This document shows, piece after piece, positions 1 to 64,000 of a DNA stretch of 64,000 bases. A program made the position numbers and the translations under genes. Source of the stretch: a virus; the IMG/VR virus record IMGVR_UViG_3300045988_159706, one strand, 5' to 3'. The first letter of the stretch is position 1, and every line of letters starts with the position of its first letter. The notes beneath the pieces are model-generated. The model made no database searches, was not told where the DNA came from, and saw only the letters and a list, made by a program, of their open reading frames with translations.

Positions 1-1
1 A

Positions 2-268
2 ACATGTTCTGAAGTTATTTCTTTAGGAGACTATATGGGACTCCCATATGATCTTATACATAAGACTCCTGCAGATGGATTAACAGGAAAGTCTGATGAA
101 GAAAATTTTGGTTTTACATATAAAGAACTTGACACTCTTATTGTAAAGCAGCGAAATCTTACTTGCACAGGTAGAATACAATGTGCTTTTACTGAACAAG
201 AATTAAAAATCTTAAAATTACATGAAGCTGCGTATCACAAAGATTATGTAATTAAAATACATTATTAA
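2..268 (+). CDS. NAD+ synthetase (NadE)-like PP-loop enzyme, C-terminal fragment; gene starts upstream of the window
   Basis: The frame is open from base 2. LGDYMGLPYDLIHKTPADGLTGKSDEENFGFTYKELD resembles the conserved C-terminal K-x-P-[ST]-A-x-L...DE..lG..Y..lD block of NH3-dependent NAD synthetases. TAA stop at 266-268. Confidence 0.5.
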   Translation, partial: TCSEVISLGDYMGLPYDLIHKTPADGLTGKSDEENFGFTYKELDTLIVKQRNLTCTGRIQCAFTEQELKILKLHEAAYHKDYVIKIHY

Positions 269-269
269 T

Positions 270-9493: not shown

Positions 9494-9583
9494 GCGCCTG
9501 ACCCGAGGCGGGGGGGAGGTCTTCAAAACCTCTATGCTGTTGGTCCATCTTCAGCCCTGTGGGATCGTTACCTACCAGGCGTG
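9494..9583 (+). tRNA. Opal-decoding tRNA (anticodon TCA) with a long extra arm and G73
   Basis: Acceptor GCGCCTG/CAGGCGT. Anticodon stem GAGGT/ACCTC with loop CTTCAAA (UCA). About 25-nt extra region with GCTG/CAGC stem. T arm GTGGG-ATCGTTA-CCTAC. Discriminator G. The D region is G-rich and non-canonical. Confidence 0.75.
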
Positions 9584-9600
9584 CAAGTAAGAAGTAAAAT

Positions 9601-10185
9601 ATGACTATTAAGGAACAATGTATACATTTACGAGAAGAAGGAAAAACTTATAACGAAATTTGTGCTATTCTACACTGCTCTAAAAGTACAGTTGCATATC
9701 ATTTGAACGCGACTACTAAAATAGCAGCCACAAAATGACAAAGTGAAAATAAATGTAAGGATTGAAAGTATAAATTTATGCATAGTTGTTCTAATTTTTT
9801 AAATCGAAAAGATAGATCTAAACACATCAAAACAATGTGCTCAGATTGAAATAAAAAGTTTAGAACTCACGTATCAGAGTTCAATAATAGATATAAAAAT
9901 AAAGGAAATTTGGCTAATAAATGTTACTATAAAGATGTGTTAACATATCTTAATGGAACTAATGTTAAATGTTATTTAACAGGTACACCTATTGATTTGA
10001 CAAAAGATGATTATTGTTTTGATCATATAGTTCCTGTATCAAAAGGAGGAACTAATGAATTATCAAATCTAGGAGTAACTATTCCCTCAGCTAATTATTC
10101 TAAACATGATTTAACTATAGAGGAATATTTGTCTTTATGTAAACAGGTTTTAGAACATCATGGGTATACTGTAAGTAAAACTTAA
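9601..10185 (+). CDS. HNH homing endonuclease with N-terminal helix-turn-helix
   Basis: ATG at 9601 is in frame with ORF 9910-10185 through three TGA codons. N-terminal EGKTYNEICAILHCSKSTVAYHL looks like an HTH. C-terminal CFDHIVPVSKGGTNELSNLGVTIPSANYSKH is the HNH core. Confidence 0.8.
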
Positions 10186-12423: not shown

Positions 12424-12720
12424 ATGAAGACATTTACTGAGTTTAAAAAACTTATTCCCAATAATAAATTGGGTGTTATTTCTCATCCTTGTAATAATTC
12501 AGTAACAGAGCCAAATATCTTAAAATGTTTGAATTACAAGATGCAATTTTCACTTCGAAAATGTAATCTTATCTATTGGAATATGCTGAAACAGCTTTAT
12601 ATATCATCTGATGATATGTTTAAATTTCTTAAAGGAGGAGTAAGTTATAGAGAAAGTATGACTGCCTTAATGGTAAGAGTACTAAGAGAAAATGTAGCTA
12701 AAAACGTATGAAAAAACTAA
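12424..12720 (+). CDS. Hypothetical protein
   Basis: ORF 12424-12711 ends at TGA (12709-12711) overlapping the mgsA ATG. Read-through adds W-K-N before TAA at 12718-12720. Confidence 0.5.
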
Positions 12721-13456: not shown

Positions 13457-13595
13457 ACGTATCTTAGATTACATAAAGGCTGTAAGGAAGAAATCAAGGG
13501 AAGAGGAGATCCAATTGTATGGAAAACCTCTTCCTAAAACTAAGATTAAAGAATCAAAAAAGATATATAAGAGAAATAAAAAATGACTGCATTAG
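13401..13595 (+). CDS. Hypothetical very basic protein overlapping the previous ORF in another frame
   Basis: ORF 13401-13586 ends at TGA overlapping the next ATG. Read-through adds W-L-H before TAG. The relationship to 13199-13456 is unresolved. Confidence 0.35.
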
Positions 13596-15493: not shown

Positions 15494-15890
15494 GGAATTT
15501 ACTGTTCCTATTCTTAATGTCAAAGTGTCAATCTTAATTGGAAGTCCACTATCCGTAGAAAGTTACCTTCAGGATGTTCATAACAAAGTATTCGGACATA
15601 GTGCACCAAATGTAGTTGCAGAAACCTTTTATTCTACTGAATCAGATGCTGATGAGTTTTTGTATATTGCATTATACGATGATACAGATATAAAAGATTC
15701 TGCATATAACGTTATACATGAATGTCTTCATGCTGCTCATAAAATCTGTACTTTCAGAGGAGTTGAGTTAGATGAAGAGTTTCTATGTTATTTGCAGGGA
15801 TTCTTAATTAACAAAGTATTTGAATGTTTGAATGCTGAACTGATGGTAGTTACAAACCATCAATTGACTGCGGAGGATACTCTGCAATAA
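15477..15890 (+). CDS. Hypothetical protein with HExxH motif
   Basis: VIHECLHAAHKI is a candidate zinc-metallopeptidase motif. 137 aa. Confidence 0.45.
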   Translation: MIQKAREFTVPILNVKVSILIGSPLSVESYLQDVHNKVFGHSAPNVVAETFYSTESDADEFLYIALYDDTDIKDSAYNVIHECLHAAHKICTFRGVELDEEFLCYLQGFLINKVFECLNAELMVVTNHQLTAEDTLQ

Positions 15891-16267
15891 TAACTCAAAA
15901 TGGTGAAGTTATAAAAAAACTTTACAGAGGTTATAGAAACACTACTAACAACCGTATGGAACTTCTAGGGGTCTTAGAATGTCTTAGATATTTTACAAAC
16001 CCTGAACAAATAACCATATATTCGGATTCTCAATATGTAGTATCGAGTATTAACAACAAGCATCTTACCAAGTGGGTTGAAGACAATGATCAATCCAAAA
16101 AGAATCTTGATTTGTGATATCCAATTTATGAATTATTGAAGTTTCATACGGTTACTTTTGTGTGAGTAAAAGGCCACAATAATAACAAATTTAATGAGTT
16201 AGCGGATTTATTTGCAACTCATGCAAGTGATTGTTTAGATCTACCAGAAGATAATGGTTCATTTTAA
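15824..16267 (+). CDS. rnhA: Ribonuclease HI
   Basis: Missed by the standard-code ORF track because it has three in-frame TGA codons. MFEC-W-TDGSY, TTNNRMELLGVLECL, IYSDSQYVV, KKNLDL-W(16115-16117)-YPIYELL and TFV-W(16163-16165)-VKGHNNNKFNELAD. The DEDD residues and both invariant RNase HI Trp positions are present. Confidence 0.85.
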
Positions 16268-19234: not shown

Positions 19235-20173
19235 TTGGAACAAGTAAATACAACACTATTAAAAGCTCTATGCGAAATAGTACATCCTTCTAGACAGGAA
19301 CAGTCCATGATAACTTATATACTTAACTTCTGTTATACAATAGAAGGTATACAATTTGAAATGGATGATGAAAATAATCTTTTTATTACAAAAAATACTA
19401 CTAATCCAGCGGTATATCCTTGTCTAGTAGCACATATGGATGAAATTCTACATTATACAGGTGTAAAATGTGCAAAAATTAAAGGAAATAAAATTTATGG
19501 CTATTATAAGAAGACAGGAAAACAATGTGGACTTGGGTTAGATGACTGTTTTGGCATCTATATTTGTCTACATTGTTTATATTGCCTTCCAGACCTAAAA
19601 GTTTGTTTCACAACTCAAGAAGAAATGGGTTGTATAGGAGCAGAAATTGCAGGTTTAAATATTGATTTCTTTGATAATTGCAGATTCCTGTTACAAGCTG
19701 ATAGAATGGGAGGTCAAGATTTGATTACACATACTAATGGCATAGACATTACTTCAGATGAGTTTCTAGAAGATATAGATAGTCTTTTAGAAAAATATAA
19801 GTACAAAGAGGCACGAGGTACAATGACAGATGTTGGAACTTTAAAAGAAAACATTAATCTGTCTGCAGTTAATATTTCGTGCGGATATTATTGTGCTCAT
19901 ACACACAAAGAATATGGAAATTTAACGGAGTTAAATAATTGTTTAAATTTTATCTTAGAGATTATTAGGCTTAATGATAAAGTTTATGAACATACAGCTG
20001 ATCTTTCTGGATCATATGCAAGGTATTCAGATTTTGATTGGCCTCCTGGAGAATCTAGGCATGTTTATGCTTACCAAGATTCTGATGAAGCTTTCTATGA
20101 AAATCTTGCAGATAAGTGTTCCAACTGTAAGACTTATAGATGTGATGAGTGCGGTTACTATTGACGTGGCTAA
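19235..20173 (+). CDS. M42/M20-like metallopeptidase-fold protein with C-terminal zinc ribbon
   Basis: CLVAHMDEI, LDDCFGIY and TTQEEMGCIGA follow the H.D / D / EE metal-ligand order. C-terminal CSNCKTYRCDECGYY. TGA at 20162, then W-R-G and TAA overlapping the next ATG. Confidence 0.5.
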
Positions 20174-21393
20174 TGGACAAAACTCAACGTCAACGATTAG
20201 GCGTTCAAAAATGAATTAATAATAAAGGAAATGGGATTTGGGTTTGAAGTACTGGTGTTGGTAAATCATTTGGAGCTTTAATGGCTTGTGTGAAATTACT
20301 AAAAATTAGACCAGATGCTAAAATTCTAATTTCTGTACCTACAACAATTCTCAAGGAACAATGACTAAGAGACGTAGCTAAAACTAAATTCTTTGGAAAT
20401 GTTACTGTTGAGGTTATTAATTCTATTTTAAAAAAATCTTGAGAAGTTGATTTTCTAATAATTGATGAGCTTCATACTGCGGTATCGGAGCAGTCAATAA
20501 AAATATTTGATCAAGTTAAGTATGATTTCTTTCTGGGGCTTACAGCTACTTTAGAAAGACTTGATGGAAGAGAGGAATTACTATCTTTATATACTAGAGT
20601 AATTGATGTCATTACAACTGAAGAAGCAATAAAAAATGGATGATTATCGCCATTTAGGTATTACAAAGTTCTTGTGGAGGTTGATGACATGGATACTTAT
20701 TATGTAATGAACCAAAAGTTTAATTCAGTTTTTGCATTCTTTAATTTTGATTTCAGTTCTGCAATGAAATGTGCAACTGATTGAAAGTTCCGTAATAATT
20801 ACGCTTATAAGATGGGATATGATAGAAAGCAGGTTTTAAATGCTGCTATGGCGTGGATGCAATTAATGCAGAAGCGCAAAAAATTTGTTATGTCCCACCC
20901 TAAAAAGTTTGAAATAGCGAAAAAAATTATAGAAGCAAGAAAAGATAAAAAAATTATTACTTTTTCAGCCACTATTAAAGATGCGGAATCTTTAAAAGTT
21001 GGATATACTCTTCATAGCAAAAAGAAAAAACAAGAAAACTCAGAAACTATTGCATTGTTTAAGTCTCAATCTTCAGGGGTTCTTAATACATCTAAAGCAG
21101 CTAATGCAGGATTGGATTGCCCTGATATAAATTGTGAGATTAGAATTAGTGGAACTAGTTCTGGAATTGATGCAAGGCAGATTTTGGGAAGGGGATTGCG
21201 TTATGTTAATAATAAGATAACTGAAGTTTTTACTTTGGTTGTTAAAGGCACTAACGAAGAATCCTGGTTTAATAAGGCCCATCAAGGCATTTCATATATT
21301 ACTATCACTGAAGATCAACTTGACTTAGTTTTAAAAGGAGAAGAAGTAATCACAAGAAAACGAGATGATGTAATTACTAACTATAGATTTTAA
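20173..21393 (+). CDS. Superfamily 2 (DEAD/DEAH-like) helicase
   Basis: ATG at 20173 is in frame with ORF 20812-21393 through six TGA codons. STGVGKSFGAL (motif I), IIDELH (motif II), GLTATLER (motif III) and the helicase C domain (TSKAANAGLDCPD, QILGRGLR). Confidence 0.8.
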
Positions 21394-25116: not shown

Positions 25117-26160
25117 ATGCAATTTACATTAGGACCGACCACTGTTACTAAAGAACTAATTCTGAACAGTGTAAGTGAAGAAACTTTAATGGAGCATTAT
25201 TTAGGAGTCCCTGTGAAAAAGGGACTCCTAAAATCTCCGTTAAGACAAGATAATAAACCCACTTGTGCTTTTTATAGAAACAAGAAAGGAGATCTTATAT
25301 TTAAGGACTTCCGTGGTGATTTTTCAGGTAATTTCATTTCGGTTGTAATGTATAAATTTCAATGCTCTTACGGAAAAGCCTTAAATATTATTGCTAATGA
25401 CTTTGGAATAGTCTCTCGACCTAAACTGCAAGTTAATCCCCCTCTTATTAAATATACAAATAAAAAGTTTGAGGAAACACAAGAAGCTATTATACAAATA
25501 GAAGTGAAGGATTTTGAACAGTATGAGTTAGATTGATGGCTAAAATTTGGAGTTACTAGAAAGATATTAAGGAAATTTAGAATATTTTCCTGTAAGAACG
25601 TTTTTCTAAATGGAAACATATTTCATCTTCATAAAGATAAACAATTAGTTTTTGGATATTTTGGAGGTATTCGAGAAGATATTGAACGCTGGAGAATATA
25701 TTTTCCTGGCAATACAAAGTATAAATTTATATCTAATTGAAAATCTTTTAGGTTGCAGGGAGCACATGCTCTTCCCAAAGAGGGAGGAGAATATCTTGCA
25801 ATTACTAAATCTTTAAAAGATGTTGCATGTTTATATAGTTGTGGTATTACAGCTATAGCCCCAATTTCTGAGAACTGTTTTGTTACAGAGGCTCAATTTG
25901 AAAGGCTAAGTAAAAAATTTAAAAAAATTATTCTTTTTTACGATAATGACTCTGCTGGAATAACTCACATGAATAAGTTTAGAAAACAATTTCCAGATGT
26001 TTATGTGTTATGAATCCCCCGTCATTTTGGCGCGAAAGATATTTCTGACTATTATAAGAAGTATGGTAGGGAAAAAACACTGAACTTAATCGAACAAGCT
26101 AAACTTAAGGTTAATGCCGAAGAAGAAAGAAGAAGAAAGTCCAAAGAAGAAGAGGTCTAA
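25117..26160 (+). CDS. DNA primase (TOPRIM-type)
   Basis: Four standard-code pieces share one frame and are joined by TGA at 25534, 25738 and 26011: YELD-W-WLKFGVT, FISN-W-KSF and YVL-W-IPRHFGAKDISDY. TOPRIM-like LAITKSLKDV and LFYDNDSAG. TAA at 26158-26160. Confidence 0.75.
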
Positions 26161-26538: not shown

Positions 26539-27045
26539 ATGAAAACATTATTTGTATTTCAAATTCAATCATTTACTAATGTGGTTACAAATAGTTCTAG
26601 TGAGCTGTTTGTATTTACTGGAACCACTGAAGTTGTAAGTGATATATTAGATTCTAATGTTCCAGGATGGGAACACGAATATGATGACCCACAGTCAGTA
26701 CAGGATTTAAGTCCCAGCTCTTTAGAAACTTATCTTTCTTATGCTTACAACAATTATGATTGGAACTGGGACAATAAACGAATAACTAGAGAAACAAGTA
26801 GACAAACTCGTTGGGCTAGAGAATTTAATATTGACCCAAATGATCTTTACAAAAATTATAAAGAGTGGGATCCAAATTCTGAAAAATGGGAAATTTCTCA
26901 ATTACAACTCAAAGAAGGTTGGGATAAACTCATTAAACAGAAACTTAATCCAAACTTAGTTTTTGTTTTTTCAAAGGGTGAAAATCCAAATTGGGAGCGC
27001 CAAGAAGAGATGATGACCTTTGGTTCCCGCTATCATTTAGGATAA
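26539..27045 (+). CDS. Paralog P1 of the ITNSSSE-motif family (168 aa)
   Basis: N-terminal FVFQIQSFTNVVTNSSSELFVF is shared with the next three ORFs. The C-terminus is Trp/Asn-rich and unrelated to the others. Confidence 0.65.
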   Translation: MKTLFVFQIQSFTNVVTNSSSELFVFTGTTEVVSDILDSNVPGWEHEYDDPQSVQDLSPSSLETYLSYAYNNYDWNWDNKRITRETSRQTRWAREFNIDPNDLYKNYKEWDPNSEKWEISQLQLKEGWDKLIKQKLNPNLVFVFSKGENPNWERQEEMMTFGSRYHLG

Positions 27046-27046
27046 T

Positions 27047-27379
27047 ATGAAAATAAAAATAAATATACAATCTGAATCTGATTTAATTACAAACTCATCT
27101 AGTGAGATCTTTTGTGCCATATCTTCTTTATCTGAGGATTCAATAAAGATGGTTCAGGAATATCTTAATTCATTTCTTCCTGATGGTGTTGAGTATTCAA
27201 GTCCTTCTGATATTTTTACAGTAGATGAATCTAGATATGTTATTACGTTTGAGATTAGTTACTCAGAAAATCATGAAGAGACTGGAAGACAGATGTACAC
27301 TTTAATAAAACAATTATTAAAGGAACATTTTCCAGGGGATAATTCATTTACTGTTGAAGATGGAGAGAATTATAATTAA
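27047..27379 (+). CDS. Paralog P2 of the ITNSSSE-motif family (110 aa)
   Basis: N-terminal MKIKINIQSESDLITNSSSEIFCA. Confidence 0.65.
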   Translation: MKIKINIQSESDLITNSSSEIFCAISSLSEDSIKMVQEYLNSFLPDGVEYSSPSDIFTVDESRYVITFEISYSENHEETGRQMYTLIKQLLKEHFPGDNSFTVEDGENYN

Positions 27380-27665
27380 ACTTCAAAGTGTCAGTGATAT
27401 CATTACAAATTCTTCTTCCGAAATCTTTCAGATTAAAGCTAATATGTCAGAACAAACTTTCTATAGAATTTGGCATAATCTTCTAAATAAATATGAAAAA
27501 GGTTGGAAGCATTCTGGAATTGATCATACTTACTTGGGGATTTTTGAAGTAGAAGATGAGTATATTATGCTTAGATTTCCTTCTATGTGTAACATAGGGT
27601 ATGATATGCGTGAAGCTCTTGAGGAACTTTTTGGAGAAGAAAATGTTCAATACTTTAGTTATTAA
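27354..27665 (+). CDS. Paralog P3 of the ITNSSSE-motif family (103 aa; alternative start 27360)
   Basis: N-terminal MKMERIIIKLQSVSDIITNSSSEIFQI. Overlaps the P2 stop by about 20 nt. Confidence 0.65.
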   Translation: MKMERIIIKLQSVSDIITNSSSEIFQIKANMSEQTFYRIWHNLLNKYEKGWKHSGIDHTYLGIFEVEDEYIMLRFPSMCNIGYDMREALEELFGEENVQYFSY

Positions 27666-27963
27666 AATACAATCTGTTTCTGATGTAATTACAAACAGCA
27701 GTACAGAGATTTATACAGTTTGTACAGAATATACTTTAGATAGGTTAAAAGATATTGTTAATAGTATCTTAAAAATCGCTGATTCTACACTTACAGCAGA
27801 TGACTTATTTACCTTTGAATTGGATGAAGAGTCTGATGAGTACTCTGCTTATTATGACAGAGGTTATAAAGTTATTCCGAAGAAAGAAAACTATACTGAA
27901 GCTGCCAAATATTTATCTAATATAATGGATATATTTGAACAAGAAGCTTCTTTTGAAAGTTAA
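27643..27963 (+). CDS. Paralog P4 of the ITNSSSE-motif family (106 aa)
   Basis: Start moved to the internal ATG by homology: MFNTLVIKIQSVSDVITNSSTEIYTV. Overlaps the P3 stop by 23 nt. Confidence 0.6.
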   Translation: MFNTLVIKIQSVSDVITNSSTEIYTVCTEYTLDRLKDIVNSILKIADSTLTADDLFTFELDEESDEYSAYYDRGYKVIPKKENYTEAAKYLSNIMDIFEQEASFES

Positions 27964-27968
27964 TAAAA

Positions 27969-33914: not shown

Positions 33915-33956
33915 TATCACAATCGGAAGAATAATATGAACTAATGTTTAATTTTA

Positions 33957-40700: not shown

Positions 40701-41867
40701 ATGCATGATATATTAATTTCTAGAGATTCTAGAGGAAAAATTAGAGTTGTAGATATTTCATATGAATGAAATGATACAACCCATAGTTTTTTAATTATTA
40801 GAAAAACATCTCAATGAGGAGGTAAAGTAACTAACCAACCAATCATTGAAGTTAAAAGAGGGAAGGCGCAACGTACAGCTGCAGAACAAGTTAAATTGGA
40901 GTATAACAGTAATGTTAAGAAATACCTTGATAAAGGTTATAAGAACATTCGTGATTTTAAAATAGAGTCATTAGATGATGTGGATGATCCAGGCAAATTA
41001 CTTGGGGATATAACTACTGATCAATCTGGTGCACCTAAGCCAATGTTAGCTAAAAGTTTTGATGGTGTAGCTACCTCAACATTTGAACATGAGTTTTATG
41101 GCTCAACAAAAATTGACGGAACACGATGCCTTATGCATTGAAATGGTTCCGAAGTAACTACATCCTCAAGAGGAGGAAACAACTATGATGTTGCTGCTAA
41201 TTATATTAGGAAAGATCCTAAAGTAATGAAGTGGCTTAAAGAACATCCTGACATATGACTGGATGGAGAATTATACGTACATGGATTACCTTTGTCTTAT
41301 ATCTCTGGTATTGTTAGACTTCAAACTTTGGATGAAAAACATAAACAGTTAAAGTATTATGTTTATGATTTAGCTATCCCTGATGTAAAATTTAAGGATA
41401 GATTAAAGATTTTAAAGGATTTTGAGAAAGCTGTTTCTGATTCTGACAAAATTGTAATGGTTAAACATGTAAAAGTATCTGGATGGCTAAATATGAAAGC
41501 TCTTCATGATCAATATGTTAATGATGGTTGGGAAGGTTTAGTAATTAGAAATCCTGATAAAGAATATAAGTTTGGAACACGAGACAATCGTATGATCAAA
41601 CTTAAAATGTTTGAAGATCATGAATATAAAATTCTAGATCTAGTAGATGGCCTCAGAGATGAGGATTTATGTTTCTTAATGGAAACTAAAGAAGGATATC
41701 AATTCAAGGCTAAGCCTATGGGAGATAGAGCTTTAAAACAATGATATCGTGATCACATTGAAGAATTAAAAGGTCAAATGGGTACTGTAAAACATTTTGG
41801 AATGACTAAAACAAATACTCCAGTACCTAATCTCCCTGTATTTAAAGCAGTTCGAAATTATGAATAA
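40701..41867 (+). CDS. ATP-dependent DNA ligase
   Basis: ATG at 40701. Five in-frame TGA join four pieces in frame 0. STKIDGTRCLMH-W-NG (motif I KxDG), W-LDGELYVHG (motif III) and GWEGLVIRNPD (motif IV). TAA at 41865-41867. Confidence 0.75.
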
Positions 41868-48307: not shown

Positions 48308-48491
48308 AGTTAAAGGATTTGATCTTGAAGTTGAACCAATGACAAAATATGATTATAATAATTGTATTTTGAAACTTCAAGTACAACATAGAGAAAATAA
48401 GAGAATCAATGGATTCTATTGCAACTGGAATGGTTATAAGTTCTGAATAGATGAAATTGACTTTAACAAGATATATACCATTGAAGAGTAA
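48297..48491 (+). CDS. Hypothetical protein (64 aa, one in-frame TGA)
   Basis: MKAKVKGFDLEVEPMTKYDYNNC...YKF-W-IDEIDF... with TAATG coupling to the polymerase start. Confidence 0.4.
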
Positions 48492-50482
48492 TGATATATT
48501 TAGTTACTAACGCTCCAGCTTTAATTCAATCTACTAAGTATACATGCATTTCTGTCAAGGAAGCTTTAGGTATGCTGGAGAAATTAAAGATTGTTGGTGT
48601 AGATACTGAAACTGAAGGTTTTGATGTCTATACTAAAAAACTATTATCTCTTCAATTAGGATGTTTTGATTTCCAAGTAGTTATTGATTGTACTACAGTT
48701 AATGTTTTACTATTTAAGGATTATTTGGAGTCGGAACGACTATTTCTTTTTTGAAATGCAAAGTTTGACTTAAAATTCTTATATTATTATGGAATTATTC
48801 CAAGATATGTTTGGGATGGCTATCTTGCAGAAAAATTAATGTGGCTAGGATATCCTTCTGGTATGCATGGAATGAGTCTTAAAGATGCAGGAATAAATTA
48901 TCTTGGAGTAGAACTGGATAAGACTGTTCGAGGTCAAATTATAAATAAGGGTTTAACAGAAGATGTTATAGTTTATGCTGGAACTGATGTTAAATACCTA
49001 GAATCTATAATGGAGAAGCAAAAAGAAAAACTTAAAGAACAGGGTCTTCTTGATGCTATCCGTGTTGAAAACGCATTTGTTAGATGTTTAGCTTATATAG
49101 AATTTTGTGGAGCTAAAATTGATCCAGAGAAATGGAAAAAGAAACTGGAGAATGATTCTAACTTATGTGAAGATTTAATCTGTCAACTCAATAAATGAGT
49201 TGAAGATAATATGGGAGGTAAGTATACAACTGTAAATAGACAAGGTGATCTATTCGATGGATTTGATACTCGTCCCAGATGTCATATTAATTGAAAGAGT
49301 GCACAACAAGTAATTCCTCTTTTTGAAGATCTTGGTTTAAATCTTTCAGTAATTGATCCTAAGACCAAACGTCCAAAAAAGTCTACTGATATTAAAGTTA
49401 TAGGACCACAAGCTTCTAAAAGTCCATTAATTCCTATATTTATGGAGTATAAGAAAGCTGCGATTTTAGTAGATACCTTTGGTGAAAAGTTTTTAGATCT
49501 TATAAACCCAAAAACTGGACGCATTCATGCTAATTTTAACCAGTTAGGCACTGATACAGGCCGATTGAGTTCAACTGATCCGAATCTCCAGAATCTTCCA
49601 AGTGATGCTTTGACTCGCTCCTGCTTTATAGCAGAGCCAGGAAACAAGTGGATCTCAGCTGACTATTCTGGGCAGGAAAGTTTCCTAATGGCTTCTATTG
49701 CTAATGATAAAGCTATGCTTGACGAATTAGTGAATGGTTCAGGAGACTTACATAGCCTAACTGCTAAAATGGTATTCCTTGAAATTCCAAGAGACACTCC
49801 ACTTAAAGCAATTAAAACAAAGTATCATCATCTGAGAAAAGAAGCAAAGGGCTATGAATTCTGTTTTAATTATGGAGGAATGGATAATACTCTTGTTAGA
49901 AATTATGGAATTTCTGAAGAGCGGGCCAAAGAAATCTATACTAACTACATGGAGGGTTTCTCAGGACTGAGAGACTATCAAAAGTTTAGAAGAAAGGATG
50001 TAATGGAAAAAGGATATATACTTTTAAGTCCAATTACTGGGCATAAAGCATATATCTATGACTTTGCTGAACTTAAACGCCTCTGGAAAAAACAATGTGA
50101 GAAAGGATTCTGGGAGTATTATAGAGAAATGAAACGAGATGCCCCAGACTGTGAAACTGTACAAAATGTTAGAAAATTAGCAAAAAGACGTGCAGAATCT
50201 GAAAAGCAAAGTATTAATTATCCAATACAAGCTGCAGGAGCATTGTGTTTTAAGTATGCATCTGTCTTTTTATTCAAATATCTACAAGAGCATGACCTGC
50301 TGTTTAAAGTAAAATATTGTATACCTGTACATGATGAGATTAATCTTGAGGCTCCTGCGGAGATTGCAGAAGAGATAGGAAAAGTTCTTGTACAATGTAT
50401 GGAGAAGGCTGGTGCAGTATTTTGTAAAAGAGCTAAGCTTAGTGCTGATTTAACTATTGGAGATTATTGGATACATGAATAA
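48491..50482 (+). CDS. Family A DNA polymerase with 3'-5' exonuclease domain
   Basis: Three track ORFs, all in frame 2, are joined by TGA at 48752, 49196 and 49292. VGVDTETEG (Exo I), F-W-NAKFDL (Exo II), YAGTDV (Exo III), ADYSGQESFLMA (motif A), RKEAKGYEFCFNYGG (motif B) and PVHDEINLE (motif C). Confidence 0.85.
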
Positions 50483-54096: not shown

Positions 54097-55174
54097 AAAT
54101 AAAAATAAATATAATAATATTTGTATAGTCATCAAATAAGTATTATATTTGTATATAAAATAATATATAATATGATACATCTATTTTCAGAAAAAATTCC
54201 TACAAAATATAATATATCTGGGGTATACTATATTCAAATTGATTCCCATTCATATATAGGAAGTTCAAATCAAATTACTAGAAGACTCAGAGAGCATAAG
54301 AAAAAATTAATACACAATTATCATGATAATAAATTTATGCAAAGAGTCTACAATAAGTACAAAGATGGAGGTAAAATTTACTATCAGATACTTGAAGTTT
54401 GTAATCAAGATGAGCTAAAAACTAGAGAAAAATATTGAATTGATAAACTAAATCCAGATATTAATATTGTTAAGGATCCTACTATGGAGAATACGACTTG
54501 TTTATACAATACTGCTGGATCTAAACCAGTGTATCAATATTCATTAACAGGAGAATATATAGGTGAATTTCCTTCAACTAGTGAAGCAGGAAGACAACTA
54601 AATAAAAATTCTCGTATTATTAGTCAAGCAGCTTCGGATAATCCTATTTTTAAGTCTGCCCACGGTTATCAATGAAGTTATCACAAAGTTGATAGAATGC
54701 CTTGCTATGTTAACAATAGCAGTAAAGCAACAAATAGAAAAGTAGAAATTTTAGATACTGTTTCTGGACTAAGTAAAATTTATAATAGTATTGCGGATGC
54801 AGCAAGAAGTATTTGTGAACCTCAAGATAATTTTAATTCTATTTGTGCTTCTATATCAGTAGTTTGTCATAACAAAGGTAAATTAGTAAAGCATAGGTAC
54901 AAATGTAAATATTTATAAGTGCGCGAGTATAAAATTCCGTGAATCTGGGAAAATCCTAATAGGACAACCCTAATCCAAGCTTAGTAGAAATACTAAGAAG
55001 GATCAACGACTAGTAGATACTGTCTTAACAGGTGATGCTGAAGAGAATGAACTACCACGAGTGCGGAAGTATAACCTATATGTATCAACATTCAGTGGTT
55101 ATATAAGATATAGTCTGAACTATATAGAAATATATAGAAGTAAAGGATAAAGAGCCTTTACGATAACAATAATG
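54097..55174 (+). mobile_element. Group I intron (1078 nt) carrying a GIY-YIG homing endonuclease gene, interrupting the AAA ATPase gene
   Basis: Splicing U54096 | ... G55174 | GCT joins LLLDDYSR to ALPMFLQATMELI (AAA sensor region). The 3' part (54919-55174) shares TTCCGTGAATCTGGG, CACGAGTGCGGAAG, GATATAGTCTGA and GTAAAGGATAAAGAGC with the thyX intron. Confidence 0.75.
54172..54918 (+). CDS. GIY-YIG homing endonuclease (intron-encoded) with repeated NUMOD/IENR1-like DNA-binding modules
   Basis: ISGVYYIQIDSHSYIGSSNQITRRLREHKKK is GIY-YIG...R..H. TREKY-W(54436)-IDKLNP. The repeats KPVYQYSLTGEYIGEFPSTSEAGRQL and RKVEILDTVSGLSKIYNSIADAARSI follow. Three track ORFs share one frame. Confidence 0.8.
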
Positions 55175-57877: not shown

Positions 57878-57925
57878 TAGCCCCCTATGTTGGATTCATT
57901 CCAGCGTAGGGGGCTATTTTTTTTT
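57878..57925. terminator. Bidirectional intrinsic terminator between convergent gene blocks
   Basis: TAGCCCCCTA (57878-57887) and TAGGGGGCTA (57907-57916) form a 10-bp GC-rich stem. T9 lies on the plus side and an A-rich run upstream gives a T-run on the minus strand. Confidence 0.8.
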
Positions 57926-60900
57926 ATTTTTCTTTTATTGCGTTATTAATATCCTGTCTAAATGGTCTAAACATTCCAAAAGTGTTTACAGTTCCAAGTA
58001 GAGCAGCTTCAGCAAAGTTAACATCTTCAAGTTTAAATGCTGCAGCATAACTTCTAATACTATTTTGAAGGATACTTAAGAATGGAGGATTCCAATTTAA
58101 CAAACCATTAGTGACAGCATTTATTACACCCATATCATCAAGAGAGCGATTAACTAAGTCAATTCCATTACGGAATCACCAGCTTCTATCTGCTATTTGG
58201 TCTTTATACTTTATTCCAGATTCTTCAGGGTCATCCAAAAGCATTATTTGTAATAACTTAGCAAAAAACAAAAACATTGTTAAATCATATAATGAAGCCT
58301 TAAAATTAGCAGCTTCAATATCATTAGACTTAATATATTTTCTTCACAAATCCGTTGTACTTAACTCTGGATCTTTACTAATCATTTGTTTAACATTTGT
58401 ATATACATCCTTAAATAACTGTTGATATGTTTGAAAAATACCTTCCATTATTCTTCCTTCTCATGAATATAAAGGAATACCAGTATCTTCACTAACAATT
58501 TCTGAATTTACCCATGTACCATTAGCATCAGTAATAATCTTAATATATTTTTGATTGCCTTTTACATCTACTACAGGTGTGAAATGCCCTTGGGAAGCAA
58601 CAGTAGTTCTCTTTAATGTATATTGTGTTTTCTTAGCAGATAGATAGGTCATAAACTGTTTAAACAGCATTCCTTGCCATAATTTATTTCATTCTGCTTT
58701 TGTTTCAAGGTCATAATAACCAAAGGATTCATCTGCAAAAGACTTTATAGATTCCCTTTGCAGTACCGTATATGCCATTTCAAATTTGTCTCCAACCTTA
58801 TATAAAGGTTCACCAGTACGTTCACGTTCTACATTAAACTGCCTTAACATAGCTATATAGAGTCCATATTGTTTTTCATATACAGATTTAACTGAATCAG
58901 GTACAGCATGGTCTTTGTATTTTAAATAAACATCGAATCGTTTATCCTTTTCCATATCATACTTAAGTCTTTCAATTCCATCTGAATCCTTATCAATATA
59001 ATGTGCATCAAAGGTTCCATCATGAATCATTTGAGCTAAAAATATAGACATACGATTCCAATAGTCGGGTGCAGTTAAAGCTCATCCAGAATATCTAGAA
59101 AATCCTCCTATAATACCATTTTTATATGATATTGTATTTTCAACCATATTTCTAAGATCCATATTAGCTAACGCGTATAACTCATTTAACAACTCAATCT
59201 TAGTAATTTCAGTTATAAATTTTGGAGAATCATAAATAAGGTATTTTAGTGCTTTTCCGTAATCCTTTATTGTGAAAGCTTCTTTTCCATATCTTCTGAA
59301 CATAGCATTGGAGAGGTTAGTTCAAAATCCCATTAAAACCTCTCTAGGCAAGTTAGCAAAGTGCCAAGAAAGTGCTACACTGGATGCAACAGATCTTAGT
59401 GCAGATAAAGATTTAAACATACCTCGCATTTCTTGAGGAACTAATGACTCGAAATATAAAGAAGATTTAGTCGTATCTGCAATGAATTCCATAATGTTAG
59501 AAACATCAATTCCTGTTAAATTTCCTTTTAGAGATAATGCCGCTTGCATAGCTCTAATCTGGGGAAGTATTTCATTTACATTATTTTTCTTTGCTTCTGC
59601 CATTTTATATGAAGCTAAAATTATCTCCAAATTAGTTTCAAAAGCTCCAATTTCATATTCCTGAATAAGTTTTCTTCTTTTATCCTCATTTTTTCTATCC
59701 TCAAACTCAAAAGCTAATTGATCAAATGCATCTGCTGCACTTTCTTGTTCTTTAGCTCTTTCAGAGAAAGTATCTTTGATAAAGGAATTAAATCCATAAG
59801 CAAAGTTATCATAAAACGTCTTTGCATTTAGATTTCCATTTGTAGCCAAACTAGCTAGTCTAACTCTTACTAAAGGAACCAAGAAATCATTTTCGTCTAA
59901 GTCTGCTCTTGAAGTTTTTCCAGTTATTGTTTTTAACGCAAACTTAATCATTCTTCTTTCAGCTTCACTTAAATCATTACTCATGTCCCAAGGATCTTTG
60001 AAGGTTAAATCAAAAGTATCAGGTCTATAAAGGTTTCTATAAAGGCCTCCTTTTGCACCAATAAAATTACTAGTTGCTATTCCGTGCCCTATAGAGTTTT
60101 CATATAAGGATTCTTCTTTACGTAATTCCCCTAATCAATTCGTATACTCATTTCTAATTTTTTGAAATGCGGTAGCCATAATATTTCTAAAATATACAAT
60201 ATTACTGGAGCGAATTGTATCCATGGAGTTTAACATAAAACTATCAAACCAGTTAGGAAAGCCCTTTCCAAAAAGTTTAGCATAAGTTTTTTCTTCAAAC
60301 ATATCTACATTCTTATAATATAAGTACATTTGTGCAACCCAAGCATAAACTTTTGCATTTTGATTTGATATATCTAAATGGTTAACATCCAATTGTGCTG
60401 TTGTTCTAATTGTTTCAAGAAGGGTTTCTAATCTATCTACTAAATCTTCAGTATTGTTGGAATCAAAATTAGAGGAAATAAACAAATCAGAATTTTCTTT
60501 TATTAATTTATACAAGGCATTTTCTCCACTTTGGTCTATCCTAAATATAGCCATAATTTGATCCGACACTTTATCAATAATTGATACAAACCGTGATTGC
60601 CCTTTATAGGGGCCTTCTCGTAGCGTAGTTAGGTTCGCAGACATAGGGGTGCCATTTTCATCAACAACTAATTGGGATAAAATTTCTTCAATAAAAGTAA
60701 TTTCTTTTTCGTTAAAACTCTTAGATTGAGATTTAAAAGGATTAACAGCACGAATATCTCCTAATTTTAGATTTTGGAAAGCAGGTCTTTCATTTAATAC
60801 TATTAAAGCTTTTAACAATGCAGCATTTCCTCTTGTAGCTTCTAAAGGCAGAATTTTTTTCTGGGCATACTGCTGCTCTAACCATTTGGCATTTGTGGTT

Positions 60901-62744
60901 CCTGGTTTAGCGATTAGTTCAAATAAACTTGATAGTTTTCCATTATCAGAATAATATAAATTATCATCTAAGTTTAGTTCATCCAATGTAAGAATGTCAA
61001 TAGCGTTATTAATAGTATCCACAATAGGTATAAGTCCTCTGTCAAATAAATTTTGATTATCAACAATTATATACCTATCTTGTTGATTATAATACTTATC
61101 TAATAGTGCTTTATAAAATCCTCTACGTCGGCTATTTCCTTCATAGGGAATAGAGTCTGGTAAAGTTCCTTTTAATATACTTCTAAGGCTTCCTATGAAA
61201 TTATTAATCATTGCAGGACGGCTCTCTTTTAACTCCTCAATATATCTATCAATTCGTTCTGAGATAGCATCCTCTCCAGATAAAGGCTCTTTTTTTCCAG
61301 TGATATCATTTACAAAATCAATTCTGCCATTTTTATATCTTATGATATTACTTTTTTCAATAATTTCCTTATTAAGTCTATATGTTTTAGCTAAAATATA
61401 TTCCTCTGGCAGAATCTTTGTTATTTTTTTATCTATATTTAGCATTTCTTCTGGATCCTTATATTCAGAATATAAAACTCTTGGGATGTAATCATCTAAG
61501 TTTCTTACTACATAAGGAGCAGTTACTTCTTCAGTAATATTTTTTAATCCGTCGGAAACTAACCTACCCTTGAATTTATATATTGGAACTAAGTAGTACT
61601 GAAGCGAATTAGTATTTATTCCAAGTTGGTTTAATACTCTTCCGTAAAAGGCCTGTTGATAAATAGCAGTTAATCGTTTTTCTTTAGCTCACTTATCATA
61701 AGGTTTCTTAGAAAACTTAATGTCATAAATTGTAGATATATCCCCATCAATTACAAATAAGTCTAATTTACCTCTAATTTTTGATTTCCCTTCAATTTCA
61801 TATCCAAGATCTGCAGTTAAGTCTATTTCAGAATATATTTTAACTCCACCTCTAAGTTTTCCATCACTTCCACTATGCTGCATTAATATTGTTTGATAGA
61901 CCTCATTTACATTATCTACCATCTCATCAAAGTCAATTTTAGATACAGTGAAAGCTTTAGCCTCTTCCTGTAATCAAGTTCTTTGATCTTGGTACATAGT
62001 GGAAAATCGCTTTGATATATAAGCAATTACAGAGCTATATCTCTCTTTTAGTGCATAAGGACTTAATTTTCTTTCGATTAAATTGTAGAAAATATTATGT
62101 ACAAACTCACCCATTAATTGAACTCTAAAGTTTTCTTTAACAGTATTTTGCACTTTTTCTATTAAATATTTAGAATCTTCTGAATTAAGGTCAATTTTAA
62201 ATTTATTTGCAGCTAAATTAAGATAATGATCTTCTGTTTTCTCTGTAATTATAGCATTATGGAATAGCTCTTCTTTAATTGCATCAAGACGTTGATCGGT
62301 AGTAAGTCCACTTTGGAAGACTAAATTATTAATATTTAGCCCTCTTCTTTGAAGTAATTCTAGAATATAATTTTTAAACAAATCACTTTCATAGTTCTCT
62401 GCAATTACTTCTGGAGCTAATCGTTTTCCATCTTTGTTGGGCTTCGTAATAACATCAGTTACTGCTATTGTATCAGAATCTCCTTCTTCTAAACTGTCCT
62501 CATTTATAGCTAAGTTTCTGTTTTTTAAGGGAACTATTTTGGAAGTTTCTGAGAACACATCCTTTTTCGCTTTATTAATAATTTCGTCTACATAGGTTTC
62601 TGTGGTAACTCTTAATAACTCTGGATCAGTTTCTCAGTTATATTTACTTCTGTTTGCAGCTATATAATTTTTTACATCTTCTTCATTAGTAAACTCTATG
62701 ACCTCTCCATCATTTACCTTTAATCTTCATTTACAATTTTCCAT
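57924..62744 (-). CDS. Very large protein (1606 aa) with a RecB/Cas4-like PD-(D/E)xK nuclease motif set; eleven in-frame TGA
   Basis: Nine minus-strand track ORFs (57924-58133 ... 61974-62558) plus the 62559-62744 leader all share one frame. Every gap I translated codon by codon holds only TGA stops. ATG at 62744-62742 overlaps the upstream TAA (TAATG). Motifs: GEFVHNIFYNLI, GKLDLFVIDGDISTIYDIKFSKK and AIYQQAFYGRVL (Q..Y). Confidence 0.75.
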
Positions 62745-64000
62745 TATAATACACAATAAATAGTTAAGTTACCATCTTCCATTAATTTCTTAATAATATC
62801 ATTAGATACCTGACTTGCAGTTTTTGAAATCTCAGAATCTTCATTATTTAAAACCTCTATACCTGAATTATCTAAGACAGTATTTATATTATCCATTATT
62901 CATTGAATATCTTCAACATTATCATATCCACTTAGTGAAGAATCGTCTGCATTAACATAAAAATCTAAAAGTGCATTTAGTAGTGTATTAATAGACTCTT
63001 GATTTCCGTTATTAGTTAGCTCCAATAAATGTTTGTCACTAACCAAAGAATTTAATATGATGGGTATTGCCACTTCTGCAAATGTAGTATTAGTTGGATA
63101 TTCGCTTTTTAAATATACCTTTCCATTTTCTATATAAGGATTATTCGAATCTGTGAATAGTATAGTATCTTCAGATATAAACTCTGAAAGTGTATTGTCT
63201 AAAATAAATCTTAGTTTACTATAACTCAATGGCTCTCGTTTCTGTAGCTCCCTCTCTATAAGCCCCTGATCTCTAATTGTATTCATTCTTACAATTATGG
63301 TATCATCGGATACGATTTCGCCTAAAGAATTTTCAAAATTTTCTCCGTTATAAGTTAATTTTTGATTTGACTTAGTATATACTACATCTCCCTCATCTAA
63401 TTTAAATTCTTTTAGATCACTAATGGAAATAGGAGAAATTTCTCTTGAGCCTGGCTTCATAAAATATACATCTCAAAGTTTAGCGGAATCCTTTACAGTC
63501 TCCCCTTTCAAAGTTTTCCATACTCCTTTAACTAACATATAGTGATCTTTCCCTACAGTTAATAACTCTTCATTATATTTACTTGGCACTCTTTTAATTA
63601 CTTCTTGAAGACTATCATAATCACTATTGACTATCTGGGAAAACTTATCAAATATATCTAAAGAATCATCTTTAACTAGTTCATCCACTAAAGTGATAAA
63701 AGCTAGGTTATCGTTTTTTAACTGATTATAAACAAACATTACTTTTTCTACTATATCAAGATTAGCTTCGGAAGATATAGCCACAATCCTATTAGGACTA
63801 ACAAAAAAGTTTTGAGTAATAAAAGAATTATTTTTTACTTTCAAAATATTGTAATCCGTTCCTTCTAATTCTGGATAAGTATCTGTAAGTTTATAATTTC
63901 CTATTAATGTATCTGCTAGATTGCCTGAATTTAATGTAGTATTATTTCCTAAATTATCCGCAATAAATTCATATAAATTTCCAGTTACTCTTTCCCCATT
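62744..64000 (-). CDS. Large protein of unknown function, C-terminal 418+ aa (gene continues beyond the window)
   Basis: Track ORFs 62900-63460 and 63473-63844 share a frame and are joined by TGA. The frame stays open to base 64000 and continues past TGA 62900-62902 to TAA at 62744-62746. Confidence 0.65.

What the first reader, a model, noticed from the sequence alone, without database searches (positions are those of the whole stretch)
1..64000. TGA is a sense codon (best fit Trp) across the whole window, and no gene convincingly ends in TGA
The standard-code ORF track splits about 33 genes at TGA, yet the pieces always stay in one frame. Examples: family A polymerase 48491-50482 (3 pieces), primase 25117-26160 (4), DNA ligase 40701-41867 (5 TGA), SF2 helicase 20173-21393 (6 TGA), and the minus-strand gene 57924-62744 (11 TGA). 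By hand count there are roughly 75 in-frame TGA.

TGA falls on invariant Trp positions of well-known families:
- RNase HI: TFV-[16163-16165]-VKGH and KNLDL-[16115-16117];
- GIY-YIG: REKY-[54436-54438]-IDKL;
- primase: ELD-[25534-25536]-WLKFG.

RNase HI (15824-16267) and several small genes are invisible under the standard code. TGG is still used as well. Every gene end I followed is TAA or TAG. This fits published reports of TGA-recoded gut phages, but the amino acid identity here is inferred only from motif positions.
Basis: partly seen in the sequence, partly recalled or inferred. Interest (0 to 1): 0.7.

Follow-up and report, generated by a model that had tools for sequence, protein, structure and literature searches.

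The report
Gut phage reads TGA as tryptophan
This 64-kb piece of a human-gut phage reads the stop codon TGA as tryptophan, a known kind of phage recoding, and its likely decoder is an oddly built phage tRNA that standard tRNA models miss.

Summary
Treating TGA as sense raises ORF coverage from 0.80 to 0.89-0.94. It gives 86 in-frame TGA in 40 of 92 ORFs, about 80 after trimming over-long starts. Every ORF then ends in TAA or TAG.

Trp is the best fit:
- Using only standard-code relatives, a likelihood over 21 TGA sites ranks W first, with Y second by 5 nats.
- Within the recoded clade TGA swaps almost only with TGG (25 and 42 sites).
- TGG+TGA together make 1.66% of codons, against 1.74% TGG in standard-code relatives.

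TGA is not a terminator here. Standard-code relatives end 39-40% of genes in TGA and 17% in ATGA overlaps. The window keeps one or two ATGA junctions, each followed by TAA two codons later.

- TGA use is gene-specific. About half the genes avoid it, and the split is conserved in relatives (Fisher p = 4e-21).
- The decoder is probably a tRNA(UCA) at 9494-9584 that Rfam misses. Relatives carry at the same site a tRNA-Trp-like allele with an extra arm, usually split in the anticodon loop by a probable group I intron.

The recoding itself is published (Yutin 2021, Borges 2021). This is a new member of a known kind.

The parts
1..64000 (.). Region in which in-frame TGA is read as a sense codon (about 80-86 sites in about 36-40 genes). 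All gene ends are TAA or TAG.
9494..9584 (+). Candidate decoder, tRNA(UCA) 'allele A'. It has a 7-bp acceptor stem, a 4-bp D stem with a 3-nt loop, the anticodon loop CUUCAAA, a 25-nt extra arm with apex UCCA, the non-canonical T loop AUCGUUA, and discriminator G73.
   Evidence: ARAGORN finds it. Rfam tRNA and tRNA-Sec models do not, even at E<=10. It is identical in 9+ relatives. There are three compensatory pair changes, two in the D stem and one in the anticodon stem.
9601..10185 (+). HNH endonuclease gene that always accompanies allele A of the tRNA. It has 3 TGA and 0 TGG.
15824..16267 (+). RNase HI gene, with TGA at 15836, 16115 and 16163.
   Evidence: Pfam RNase_H 7e-25 across the TGA sites. 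PDB homologs have W at 16115 in 4 of 4, K/F/W/W at 16163 and Y/F/F/F at 15836.
20173..21393 (+). SF2 helicase gene with 6 TGA and 3 TGG.
   Evidence: cr111_1 (standard code) has W at two of the sites.
25117..26160 (+). Toprim primase gene with 3 TGA.
   Evidence: The aligned residues in relatives are Y, R/H and gap/E in cr111_1 and crAss001, and G and Y in PDB homologs, so these are not invariant Trp positions.
40701..41867 (+). ATP-dependent DNA ligase gene with 5 TGA. It ends in TAA where 10 of 50 standard-code orthologs end in TGA.
48491..50482 (+). Family A DNA polymerase gene with 3 TGA. Two of the sites are W in 63 of 63 standard-code relatives.
54121..54918 (+). GIY-YIG/NUMOD1 homing endonuclease gene with 2 TGA and 0 TGG.
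   Evidence: W in I-TevI at 54436
57924..62756 (-). Gene for a 1610-aa protein of unknown function, with 11 TGA and 10 TGG.
   Evidence: No PHROG hit and only remote phage hits.
270..4949 (+). TGA-poor block of nucleotide-metabolism genes (adenylosuccinate synthetase, phosphoribosyltransferase, IMPDH/GMP reductase). It has 1 TGA and 23 TGG.
26539..34499 (+). TGA-poor block (radical SAM, RlaP nucleotidyltransferase, dGTP diphosphohydrolase, PD-(D/E)XK exonuclease). It has 1 TGA and 43 TGG, and the TGA-free state is conserved in diverged recoded relatives.
12708..12720 (+). Residual ATGA junction. The in-frame TGA at 12709-12711 of gene 12424-12720 overlaps the ATG of gene 12708-13196, and TAA follows two codons later. 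Whether the gene ends at the TGA or the TAA is ambiguous.
13583..13595 (+). Second ATGA junction. The small ORF 13401-13586 ends in TGA over the ATG of gene 13583-14959, and the next TAA/TAG is two codons later.

Best explanation
The window comes from a virulent-type gut phage. Its DNA polymerase is closest to crAss-like Steigviridae, and its other genes are mostly orphans. This phage has reassigned UGA from stop to tryptophan for a defined subset of its genes.

The host probably uses the standard code. It is likely Bacteroidota-like, since gene starts lack Shine-Dalgarno motifs. The phage supplies its own UGA decoder, the non-canonical tRNA(UCA) at 9494-9584, which has discriminator G73. The host TrpRS presumably charges this tRNA with Trp, and it then competes with RF2 at UGA.

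Genes without TGA can be translated at once. These include nucleotide metabolism, ferritin, radical SAM, RlaP and dGTPase genes. Genes with TGA yield full-length protein only once the suppressor tRNA is present. These include RNase H, the helicases, primase, ligase, PolA, the homing endonucleases and the minus-strand block. The code switch therefore works as a gene-by-gene gate on expression.

Shown here:
- TGA is sense and matches Trp.
- TGA is not used as a terminator.
- The two gene classes are conserved.
- A covarying tRNA(UCA) is present in nearly all recoded relatives, and none was found near the corresponding gene in the standard-code ones.

Inferred, not shown:
- Charging by TrpRS.
- The temporal gating.
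- The identity of the host.
For: Coding density and domains that run through TGA.

Trp identity:
- Standard-code relatives give W at 52% of aligned pairs at TGA sites, against 64% at TGG sites. Gly accounts for 7 of 393 pairs.
- The BLOSUM likelihood over 21 sites gives W -54.0, Y -59.0 and F -65.4. The same method recovers the true residue in 98.5% of resamples of 46 known codons.
- TGA and TGG interchange at 25 of 80 window TGA sites, and relatives have TGA at 42 window TGG sites. No other codon is seen at more than 4 sites.
- TGG is 1.15% of codons in recoded relatives and 1.74% in standard-code relatives. TGG+TGA together are 1.66%.
- PDB homologs have W at RNase H 16115 and at the I-TevI equivalent of 54436.

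TGA is not a stop:
- Standard-code relatives end 39-40% of genes in TGA and 17% in ATGA overlaps.
- Their orthologs of the ligase, of 44712-46091 and of ThyX exon 2 end in TGA exactly where the window has TAA or TAG.
- The window keeps only 1-2 ATGA junctions.

Gene classes:
- Heterogeneity among genes has permutation p<5e-5.
- In L125 and L127, orthologs of the window's TGA-free genes hold 1 TGA and 69 TGG. Orthologs of its TGA-containing genes hold 54 and 21. Fisher p = 4e-21.

Decoder tRNA:
- Description and covariation.
- About 52 of 54 recoded loci carry a UCA tRNA at this locus, against 0 of 26 standard-code loci.

No Shine-Dalgarno enrichment upstream of gene starts.

Literature for the same phenomenon.
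Against: - There is no peptide-level evidence.
- Only 7 of 21 TGA sites have Trp as the majority residue in standard-code relatives. The rest are variable positions.
- The W residues at helicase TGA columns in the large protein database are not independent evidence. Those proteins were themselves called with code 4 from recoded contigs.
- The window's tRNA allele is structurally aberrant. It has a 3-nt D loop and no T-psi-C motif, is missed by Rfam, and its fold energy is no better than shuffles (z = 0.11). Its long extra arm plus G73 could in principle attract SerRS.
- No release factor or TrpRS gene is in the window.
- A second suppressor elsewhere in the genome cannot be excluded.
- The temporal model is untested, and TGA-free and TGA-rich genes are interleaved rather than forming clean blocks.
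- Published cases mostly put the recoding in late genes, whereas here it sits in replication genes.
Confidence: 0.85

Rival explanations
1. The host itself uses code 4, for example a Mollicutes-like gut bacterium, and the phage simply mirrors its host. No phage-driven code switch or gating would then be involved.
For: TGA = Trp is the native code of Mycoplasmatales and Entomoplasmatales (established knowledge). The recoding reaches replication genes here. It is deep in the family: the helicase of relatives at 48% identity has 7 TGA and 0 TGG. Published host guesses for some opal-recoded zeta crAss-like phages include Erysipelotrichaceae genera (Table 1).
Against: - The phage encodes its own tRNA(UCA), and so do about 52 of 54 recoded relatives.
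- About half of the genes strictly avoid TGA, and this is conserved across deep divergence. That is unexpected if TGA were freely decoded by the host.
- Only 28% of Trp codons are TGA in a genome of 32% G+C.
- Relatives with 60-77% PolA identity use the standard code, with 40% TGA stops.
- There is no Shine-Dalgarno signal.
- The closest PolA relatives infect Bacteroides.
Confidence: 0.07
2. TGA has a dual meaning. Suppression is partial, so TGA-containing genes are deliberately attenuated by a mix of termination and readthrough. A few genes, such as the ATGA junctions at 12708 and 13583, still end at TGA.
For: Two ATGA junctions persist, each with a TAA or TAG backup two codons later. TGG is still the majority Trp codon. 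A suppressor tRNA in a standard-code cell must compete with RF2 (established knowledge).
Against: - Essential enzymes carry 3-11 TGA each, so low per-site readthrough would give almost no full-length product.
- TGA is not enriched near gene ends compared with TGG: 3 of 85 against 4 of 221, p = 0.40.
- ATGA overlaps have fallen from 17% of gene ends in standard-code relatives to 1-2 junctions here.
Confidence: 0.1
3. TGA encodes another residue: Gly (code 25), Sec, Cys, Tyr, or Ser through the long-arm tRNA.
For: ARAGORN labels the tRNA 'SeC'. The tRNA has a long extra arm and G73, as tRNA-Ser and tRNA-Sec do (plus established knowledge). Tyr is the second-best residue, and 5 of 21 sites have a Tyr majority.
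Against: - W beats Y by 5 nats and all other residues by more than 11. G and S are not among the top six.
- Gly accounts for 7 of 393 aligned pairs.
- TGA interchanges with TGG and not with GGA, TGT, TAT or TCA.
- The Rfam tRNA-Sec model does not match the tRNA.
- About 80 sites is incompatible with SECIS-dependent Sec insertion.
- Allele B has the bacterial tRNA-Trp hallmarks A1-U72 and G73.
Confidence: 0.03
4. The TGA codons mark pseudogenes, sequencing or assembly errors, or independent small genes.
For: None beyond the fragmentation seen under table 11.
Against: - The same TGA positions are conserved in dozens of independent contigs.
- Pfam domains span them.
- The reading frame is always kept.
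- 38 TGA-ending fragments join into genes of normal length.
Confidence: 0.01

Closest known systems
TGA->Trp (code 4) recoded gut phages, such as the Agate and Jade clades (Borges et al., bioRxiv 10.1101/2021.08.26.457843)
   Same: In-frame TGA is read as Trp in phages of standard-code hosts. Close relatives use the standard code. Homing endonuclease genes prefer TGA. A suppressor tRNA is found in only about 35% of such genomes, and the authors suspect non-canonical tRNAs escape detection.
   Different: In the best-studied published cases the replication genes stay in standard code. Here the core replication genes are among the most recoded. The standard-code relatives here are not depleted of TGA stops (39-40%), unlike the 2.7% reported for the Agate relative. 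No RF1 or TrpRS 'code-change module' is in the window.
crAss-like phages with opal reassignment (Yutin et al. 2021, PMC7886860; Lera and zeta crAss-like phages, PMC12386605)
   Same: They come from the human gut. PolA is 55-65% identical to Steigviridae (cr111_1, crAss001). The code switches at short phylogenetic distance. Introns and homing endonucleases are dense. Some opal-recoded genomes have no detectable suppressor tRNA.
   Different: Only 17 of 92 window proteins match cr111_1 or crAss001. There are no nucleotide-level matches in INPHARED. TerL, portal, MCP and RNAP lie outside the window, so membership in Crassvirales is untested.
Mycoplasma/Spiroplasma code 4 with tRNA-Trp(UCA)
   Same: UGA is decoded as Trp by a tRNA with anticodon UCA (loop CUUCAAA) and discriminator G73.
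   Different: Those are cellular, genome-wide reassignments in which RF2 has been lost and TGA is the dominant Trp codon. Here the reassignment is phage-borne and gene-selective, TGA is the minority codon (28%), and the tRNA is not a canonical class I tRNA.
Bacterial group I introns in tRNA anticodon loops (cyanobacterial tRNA-Leu(UAA); tRNA-fMet with the homing endonuclease I-Ssp6803I)
   Same: In relatives, but not in the window, the suppressor tRNA gene is split after U34 by a 341-707-nt insertion that ends in G. The longer insertions encode a PD-(D/E)XK endonuclease (Pfam PF11645; PDB 2ost).
   Different: The host gene is a phage opal-suppressor tRNA. The Rfam group I model matches only weakly (15.5 bits, E = 0.22). 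Splicing has not been shown.
Class II tRNAs with long variable arms (Ser, Leu, Tyr, Sec, 'allo-tRNAs')
   Same: An extra base-paired arm lies between the anticodon arm and the T arm.
   Different: The inferred identity is Trp. In allele B the extra arm looks like a duplicated tRNA-Trp anticodon arm, with the loop C(C/G)UCCAAAA conserved while the stem covaries.

Membership tests
Phage stop-codon recoding TGA->Trp (translation table 4 type) | In-frame TGA inside conserved genes, with the reading frame kept and domains continuous | tested here: met
Phage stop-codon recoding TGA->Trp (translation table 4 type) | Alignment columns at TGA are enriched for Trp in standard-code homologs | tested here: met
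   W ranks first by likelihood over 21 sites. W makes 52% of aligned pairs at TGA sites, against 64% at TGG sites. PDB homologs agree. TGA and TGG interchange.
Phage stop-codon recoding TGA->Trp (translation table 4 type) | TGA is not used as a terminator | tested here: met
   All 92 ORFs end in TAA or TAG. Standard-code orthologs end in TGA at the same positions. ATGA overlaps are purged. Two junctions remain ambiguous.
Phage stop-codon recoding TGA->Trp (translation table 4 type) | A cognate tRNA with anticodon UCA is available | tested here: met
   The tRNA at 9494-9584 is non-canonical, covaries, and is associated with recoded genomes.
Phage stop-codon recoding TGA->Trp (translation table 4 type) | Peptides show Trp at TGA, and the tRNA is charged with Trp | not testable with these tools
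   Needs proteomics or aminoacylation assays.
Code 25 (TGA->Gly; Gracilibacteria/Absconditabacteria and their phages) | TGA columns align with Gly, and TGA interchanges with GGN | tested here: not met
   Gly accounts for 7 of 393 aligned pairs. GGA occupies 2 window sites where relatives have TGA, against 42 for TGG.
Selenocysteine recoding | Few TGA sites that align with Cys or Sec, plus a tRNA-Sec with its 8/5 or 9/4 architecture | tested here: not met
   There are about 80 sites and they align with Trp. The Rfam tRNA-Sec model gives no match at E<=10. The 'SeC' label from ARAGORN appears to reflect only the UCA anticodon.
Crassvirales (crAss-like phages) | Signature genes (TerL, portal, MCP, giant RNAP subunits) and their phylogeny | not tested
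   Only the PolA affinity was seen: 64.6% to cr111_1 and 55% to crAss001. The signature genes are not in the window, and few other proteins match.
Group I intron in a tRNA anticodon loop (in relatives only) | An insertion after U34 that ends in G, has a group I catalytic core and carries an optional homing endonuclease ORF | tested here: inconclusive
   The exact boundaries come from comparing intron-plus and intron-minus alleles. The ORF matches PF11645 and 2ost. The Rfam Intron_gpI model scores only 15.5 bits, E = 0.22.

The most novel reading that the evidence does not exclude
The opal-suppressor tRNAs of this phage family form a new architectural class. They are tRNA-Trp derivatives with a second, covarying hairpin between the anticodon arm and the T arm. 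The conserved loop of that hairpin, C(C/G)UCCAAAA in allele B and apex UCCA in the window's allele A, mimics the CCA anticodon loop of tRNA-Trp.

This extra arm would act as a surrogate identity element, or as a shield. It would let the host TrpRS charge a UCA-anticodon tRNA efficiently, or it would protect the tRNA from host anticodon nucleases. The gene is often interrupted by a mobile group I intron in the anticodon loop.

Together these features would explain why many TGA-recoded phages appear to lack a suppressor tRNA. Combined with the conserved split into TGA-free and TGA-dependent genes, the code switch would be a programmed gate on the replication module and not only on late genes.
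Probability: 0.2. Interest if true: 0.8.

Novelty: new member of a known kind. Interest (0 to 1): 0.5.

Why it matters
- **Annotation.** Under table 11 about 40% of the genes in this window are shattered. The phage and its many IMG/VR relatives must be called with TGA as Trp.
- **Decoder.** The window offers a concrete candidate for the 'missing' suppressor tRNAs of TGA-recoded phages. This is a tRNA(UCA) family that standard models miss, because it carries an extra arm, has degenerate D and T loops, or is split by an intron.
- **Regulation.** Recoding here follows a conserved gene-by-gene pattern inside the replication module. This extends the published idea that code switching times late genes.
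- **Evolution.** The standard-code relatives still use TGA for about 40% of their stops. Prior depletion of the stop codon therefore does not look like a prerequisite in this lineage.

Tried and rejected
- **Helicase homologs as an independent Trp test.** In the 5.8-billion-protein database they show W at the TGA columns. I rejected this because the underlying contigs are themselves recoded and were translated with code 4.
- **cr111_1 and crAss001 as whole-genome standard-code references.** Only 17 of 92 proteins align.
- **INPHARED searches.** Megablast and blastn found no close relatives. PHROGs gave no hit for eight large proteins.
- **Rfam on the tRNA.** The tRNA and tRNA-Sec models do not detect the tRNA at 9494-9584. 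The Rfam group I model does not reach threshold on the tRNA intron.
- **Enrichment of TGA near gene ends, as relics of old stops.** Not significant.
- **Sigma-70 promoter scan around the tRNA cluster.** Fewer hits than in shuffles, so it is uninformative.
- **Scan of bacterial genomes for the allele-B tRNA.** It hit only one 7.4-kb contig, in a Lactobacillus johnsonii MAG. I do not trust this as host evidence.
- **Selenocysteine, Gly and pseudogene readings.** Considered and rejected (see the rival explanations).
Full report
**Observation.** The window has 31.9% G+C. Greedy non-overlapping ORF coverage is 0.80 under table 11 and 0.89 with TGA as sense (ORFs >=60 aa), or 0.94 with ORFs >=50 aa. 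Making TAG sense gives 0.80 and making TAA sense gives 0.85. With TGA as sense there are 92 ORFs holding 86 in-frame TGA in 40 ORFs, plus 222 TGG. All stops are TAA (77) or TAG (15).

A handful of the 86 lie upstream of likely true starts or in a spurious antisense ORF, which leaves about 80. Pfam domains run straight through the TGA positions in RNase_H, DNA_pol_A and its exonuclease domain, DNA_ligase_A_M, ResIII/Helicase_C, Toprim and GIY-YIG/NUMOD1. Of 63 table-11 ORFs that end in TGA, 38 are in-frame fragments of these longer genes. The largest RNase H fragment under table 11 is 53 aa.

**Relatives.** IMG/VR holds many relatives. They fall into two groups:
- 57 loci of the close clade gain 5-25 points of ORF coverage when TGA is sense, so they are recoded.
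- 63 loci with 60-77% PolA identity gain nothing, so they use the standard code.

This gives a natural control.

**Which amino acid.**
- At ten window TGA sites covered by standard-code relatives, 52% of aligned residues are W. Window TGG sites give 64% W. Gly accounts for 7 of 393 pairs.
- I added cr111_1 and crAss001, both standard code. A BLOSUM62 likelihood over 21 TGA sites then ranks W (-54.0) ahead of Y (-59.0) and F (-65.4). The same procedure recovers the true residue in 98.5% of 21-site resamples of 46 ordinary codons.
- Within the recoded clade, 25 of 80 window TGA sites are TGG in some relative, and 42 window TGG sites are TGA in some relative. No other codon is seen at more than 4 sites.
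- TGG makes up 1.74% of codons in standard-code relatives but 1.15% in recoded ones. TGG+TGA together make 1.66%.
- Solved homologs have W at RNase H 16115 (4 of 4) and at the I-TevI equivalent of 54436.
Site 16163 is K/F/W/W, and primase 25534 aligns with Tyr.
- The W residues at the helicase TGA columns in the large protein database are not independent evidence. Those proteins come from recoded contigs that were translated with code 4.

**Is TGA ever a stop?** Standard-code relatives end 39-40% of genes in TGA, and 17% of their gene ends are ATGA start/stop overlaps. Their orthologs of the ligase, of 44712-46091 and of ThyX exon 2 often end in TGA exactly where the window has TAA or TAG.

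The window has no obligatory TGA end. One ATGA junction remains among the kept genes (12708-12711), and a second involves a small unkept ORF (13583-13586). In both, TAA or TAG follows two codons later. TGA is not enriched near gene ends compared with TGG (p = 0.40).

**Patchiness.** TGA use differs strongly between genes (permutation p<5e-5).

| Region | TGA | TGG |
|---|---|---|
| 1-5.1 kb | 1 | 23 |
| 15.6-26.5 kb | 28 | 29 |
| 26.5-34.5 kb | 1 | 43 |
| minus-strand block | 13 | 11 |

The partition is conserved. I compared the window with recoded relatives whose orthologs are only 29-90% identical (L125 and L127). Orthologs of the window's TGA-free genes contain 1 TGA and 69 TGG. Orthologs of its TGA-containing genes contain 54 and 21 (Fisher p = 4e-21). 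The three homing endonuclease genes (5128, 9601, 54121) use TGA only, which matches a published observation for Agate phages.

**The decoder.** ARAGORN finds six tRNAs, including a 91-nt 'tRNA-SeC(tca)' at 9494-9584. The Rfam tRNA and tRNA-Sec models miss it even at E<=10, and its fold energy is unremarkable. It is nonetheless a G+C-rich island in the tRNA cluster and is identical in nine or more relatives. Three base pairs change on both sides, G-C to A-U in the anticodon stem and two pairs in a 4-bp D stem, and all cells pair. It has the anticodon loop CUUCAAA, discriminator G73, a 3-nt D loop, a non-canonical T loop and a 25-nt extra arm.

The locus is dimorphic. Allele A, as in the window, is followed by an HNH gene. 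Allele B is a tRNA-Trp-like gene with the following features:
- It has A1-U72, G73, and canonical D and T arms.
- Its anticodon loop is interrupted after U34 by a 341-707-nt insertion that ends in G.
- The longer insertions encode an I-Ssp6803I-type PD-(D/E)XK endonuclease.
- One relative has the same insertion in allele A.
- One has an intron-less allele B.

Spliced allele B folds as a cloverleaf. Eight pairs change on both sides, and 0 of 500 shuffles reach the observed covariation score. Three of those pairs lie in an extra arm whose loop C(C/G)UCCAAAA is conserved and resembles the tRNA-Trp anticodon loop. Some sublineages carry a plain 73-nt tRNA(UCA), or an intron-containing version without the extra arm.

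I examined 80 loci around orthologs of gene 10777. About 52 of the 54 recoded ones carry a UCA tRNA at this position. None of the 26 more distant ones, which are essentially standard code, has one within 6 kb.

**Context.** PolA is 64.6% identical to Steigviridae phage cr111_1 and 55% to Bacteroides phage crAss001. Few other proteins match them, there is no nucleotide-level relative in INPHARED, and PHROGs gives nothing for eight large proteins. Gene starts lack Shine-Dalgarno motifs, as in Bacteroidota. The window encodes replication and nucleotide-metabolism functions, with no release factor and no TrpRS.

**Comparison with the literature.** TGA->Trp recoding in gut phages is established, with code switching at short distance and often undetectable suppressor tRNAs (PMC7886860; bioRxiv 10.1101/2021.08.26.457843; PMC12386605). 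The finding is therefore a new member of a known kind. Four things differ from the published generalisations:
- The heaviest recoding is in core replication genes.
- The split between TGA-free and TGA-using genes is gene-by-gene and conserved.
- The standard-code relatives are not depleted of TGA stops.
- The suppressor tRNA is architecturally unusual and is often intron-split. I found no description of this in the library searched.

**Mechanism.**
- Shown: TGA is sense and equals Trp, it is not a terminator, and a covarying phage tRNA(UCA) co-occurs with recoding.
- Inferred: the host TrpRS charges this tRNA (G73, C35 and A36 are retained), the tRNA competes with RF2, and TGA-containing genes are held back until it accumulates.

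**Rivals.** I considered a native code-4 host, dual-meaning TGA, another amino acid, and pseudogenes. All are disfavoured for the reasons listed under the rival explanations.

Noticed in passing
window 51409-51778: A group I intron (Rfam RF00028, 74.3 bits, E = 5e-17) splits the flavin-dependent thymidylate synthase gene into 50966-51439 and 51810-52265. cr111_1 has ThyX split at a similar place by an endonuclease gene.
   Followed up: partly
L081 5901-6598; L086 5256-5946; L125 2731-2824; L126 about 2530-2620: The suppressor-tRNA locus is dimorphic. Allele A comes with an HNH gene. Allele B is tRNA-Trp-like and is usually split by an insertion. A homologous 600-nt insertion (80% identical) sits after U34 in both kinds of allele. 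Both alleles persist in lineages whose helicases are only 48% identical.
   Followed up: yes
L204, L205 and L178 (allele B variants): The extra-arm stem is swapped from GGGAG/CUCC to ACUGG/CCAGU, while the loop C(C/G)UCCAAAA is kept. The extra arm looks like a duplicated tRNA-Trp(CCA) anticodon arm under selection.
   Followed up: partly
window 5128-5769, 9601-10185, 54121-54918: All three homing endonuclease genes (two HNH, one GIY-YIG/NUMOD1) use TGA for every Trp-type codon (7 TGA, 0 TGG). They therefore depend on the suppressor for expression.
   Followed up: partly
window 15477-15890 and 15824-16267: A 137-aa ORF with an HExxH motif ends in TAA and overlaps the start of RNase H by 67 nt in another frame. 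The overlap sits across a short tandem repeat (tttgaatgt ttgaatgc). My ORF filter missed this gene.
   Followed up: partly
window 13583-14959 and 30146-31546: Two proteins of about 460 aa with no Pfam or PHROG match are paralogs (32% identity over 166 aa, E = 1e-15). Both belong to the TGA-avoiding class.
   Followed up: partly
L006-L012, L033, L038, L039, L061, L065, L076 (PolA matches end at residue 311 or 347 of the 394-aa C-terminal query fragment): In several relatives the PolA alignment breaks off at the same residues. This suggests an intron or intein insertion in PolA that the window lacks.
   Followed up: no
L136/L188 (IMGVR_UViG_3300045988_171911, 173,322 bp): A contig carrying allele B has exactly the length given for the opal-recoded zeta crAss-like phage c815351 in Table 1 of PMC12386605. 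Identity was not verified. If it is the same phage, this family overlaps the 'zeta' group.
   Followed up: no
L159 (DBFNNF010000067.1, 7.4-kb contig of a Lactobacillus johnsonii MAG): This is the only hit to the allele-B 3' exon among 185,579 species genomes. It is probably a mis-binned phage fragment and is not reliable host evidence.
   Followed up: no
window 8494-8579: tRNA-Ser(gct) falls below the Rfam tRNA gathering score. It is picked up only as a sub-threshold tRNA-Sec-like match (41.9 bits against a gathering score of 47). This is another sign that the phage's long-arm tRNAs are atypical.
   Followed up: no
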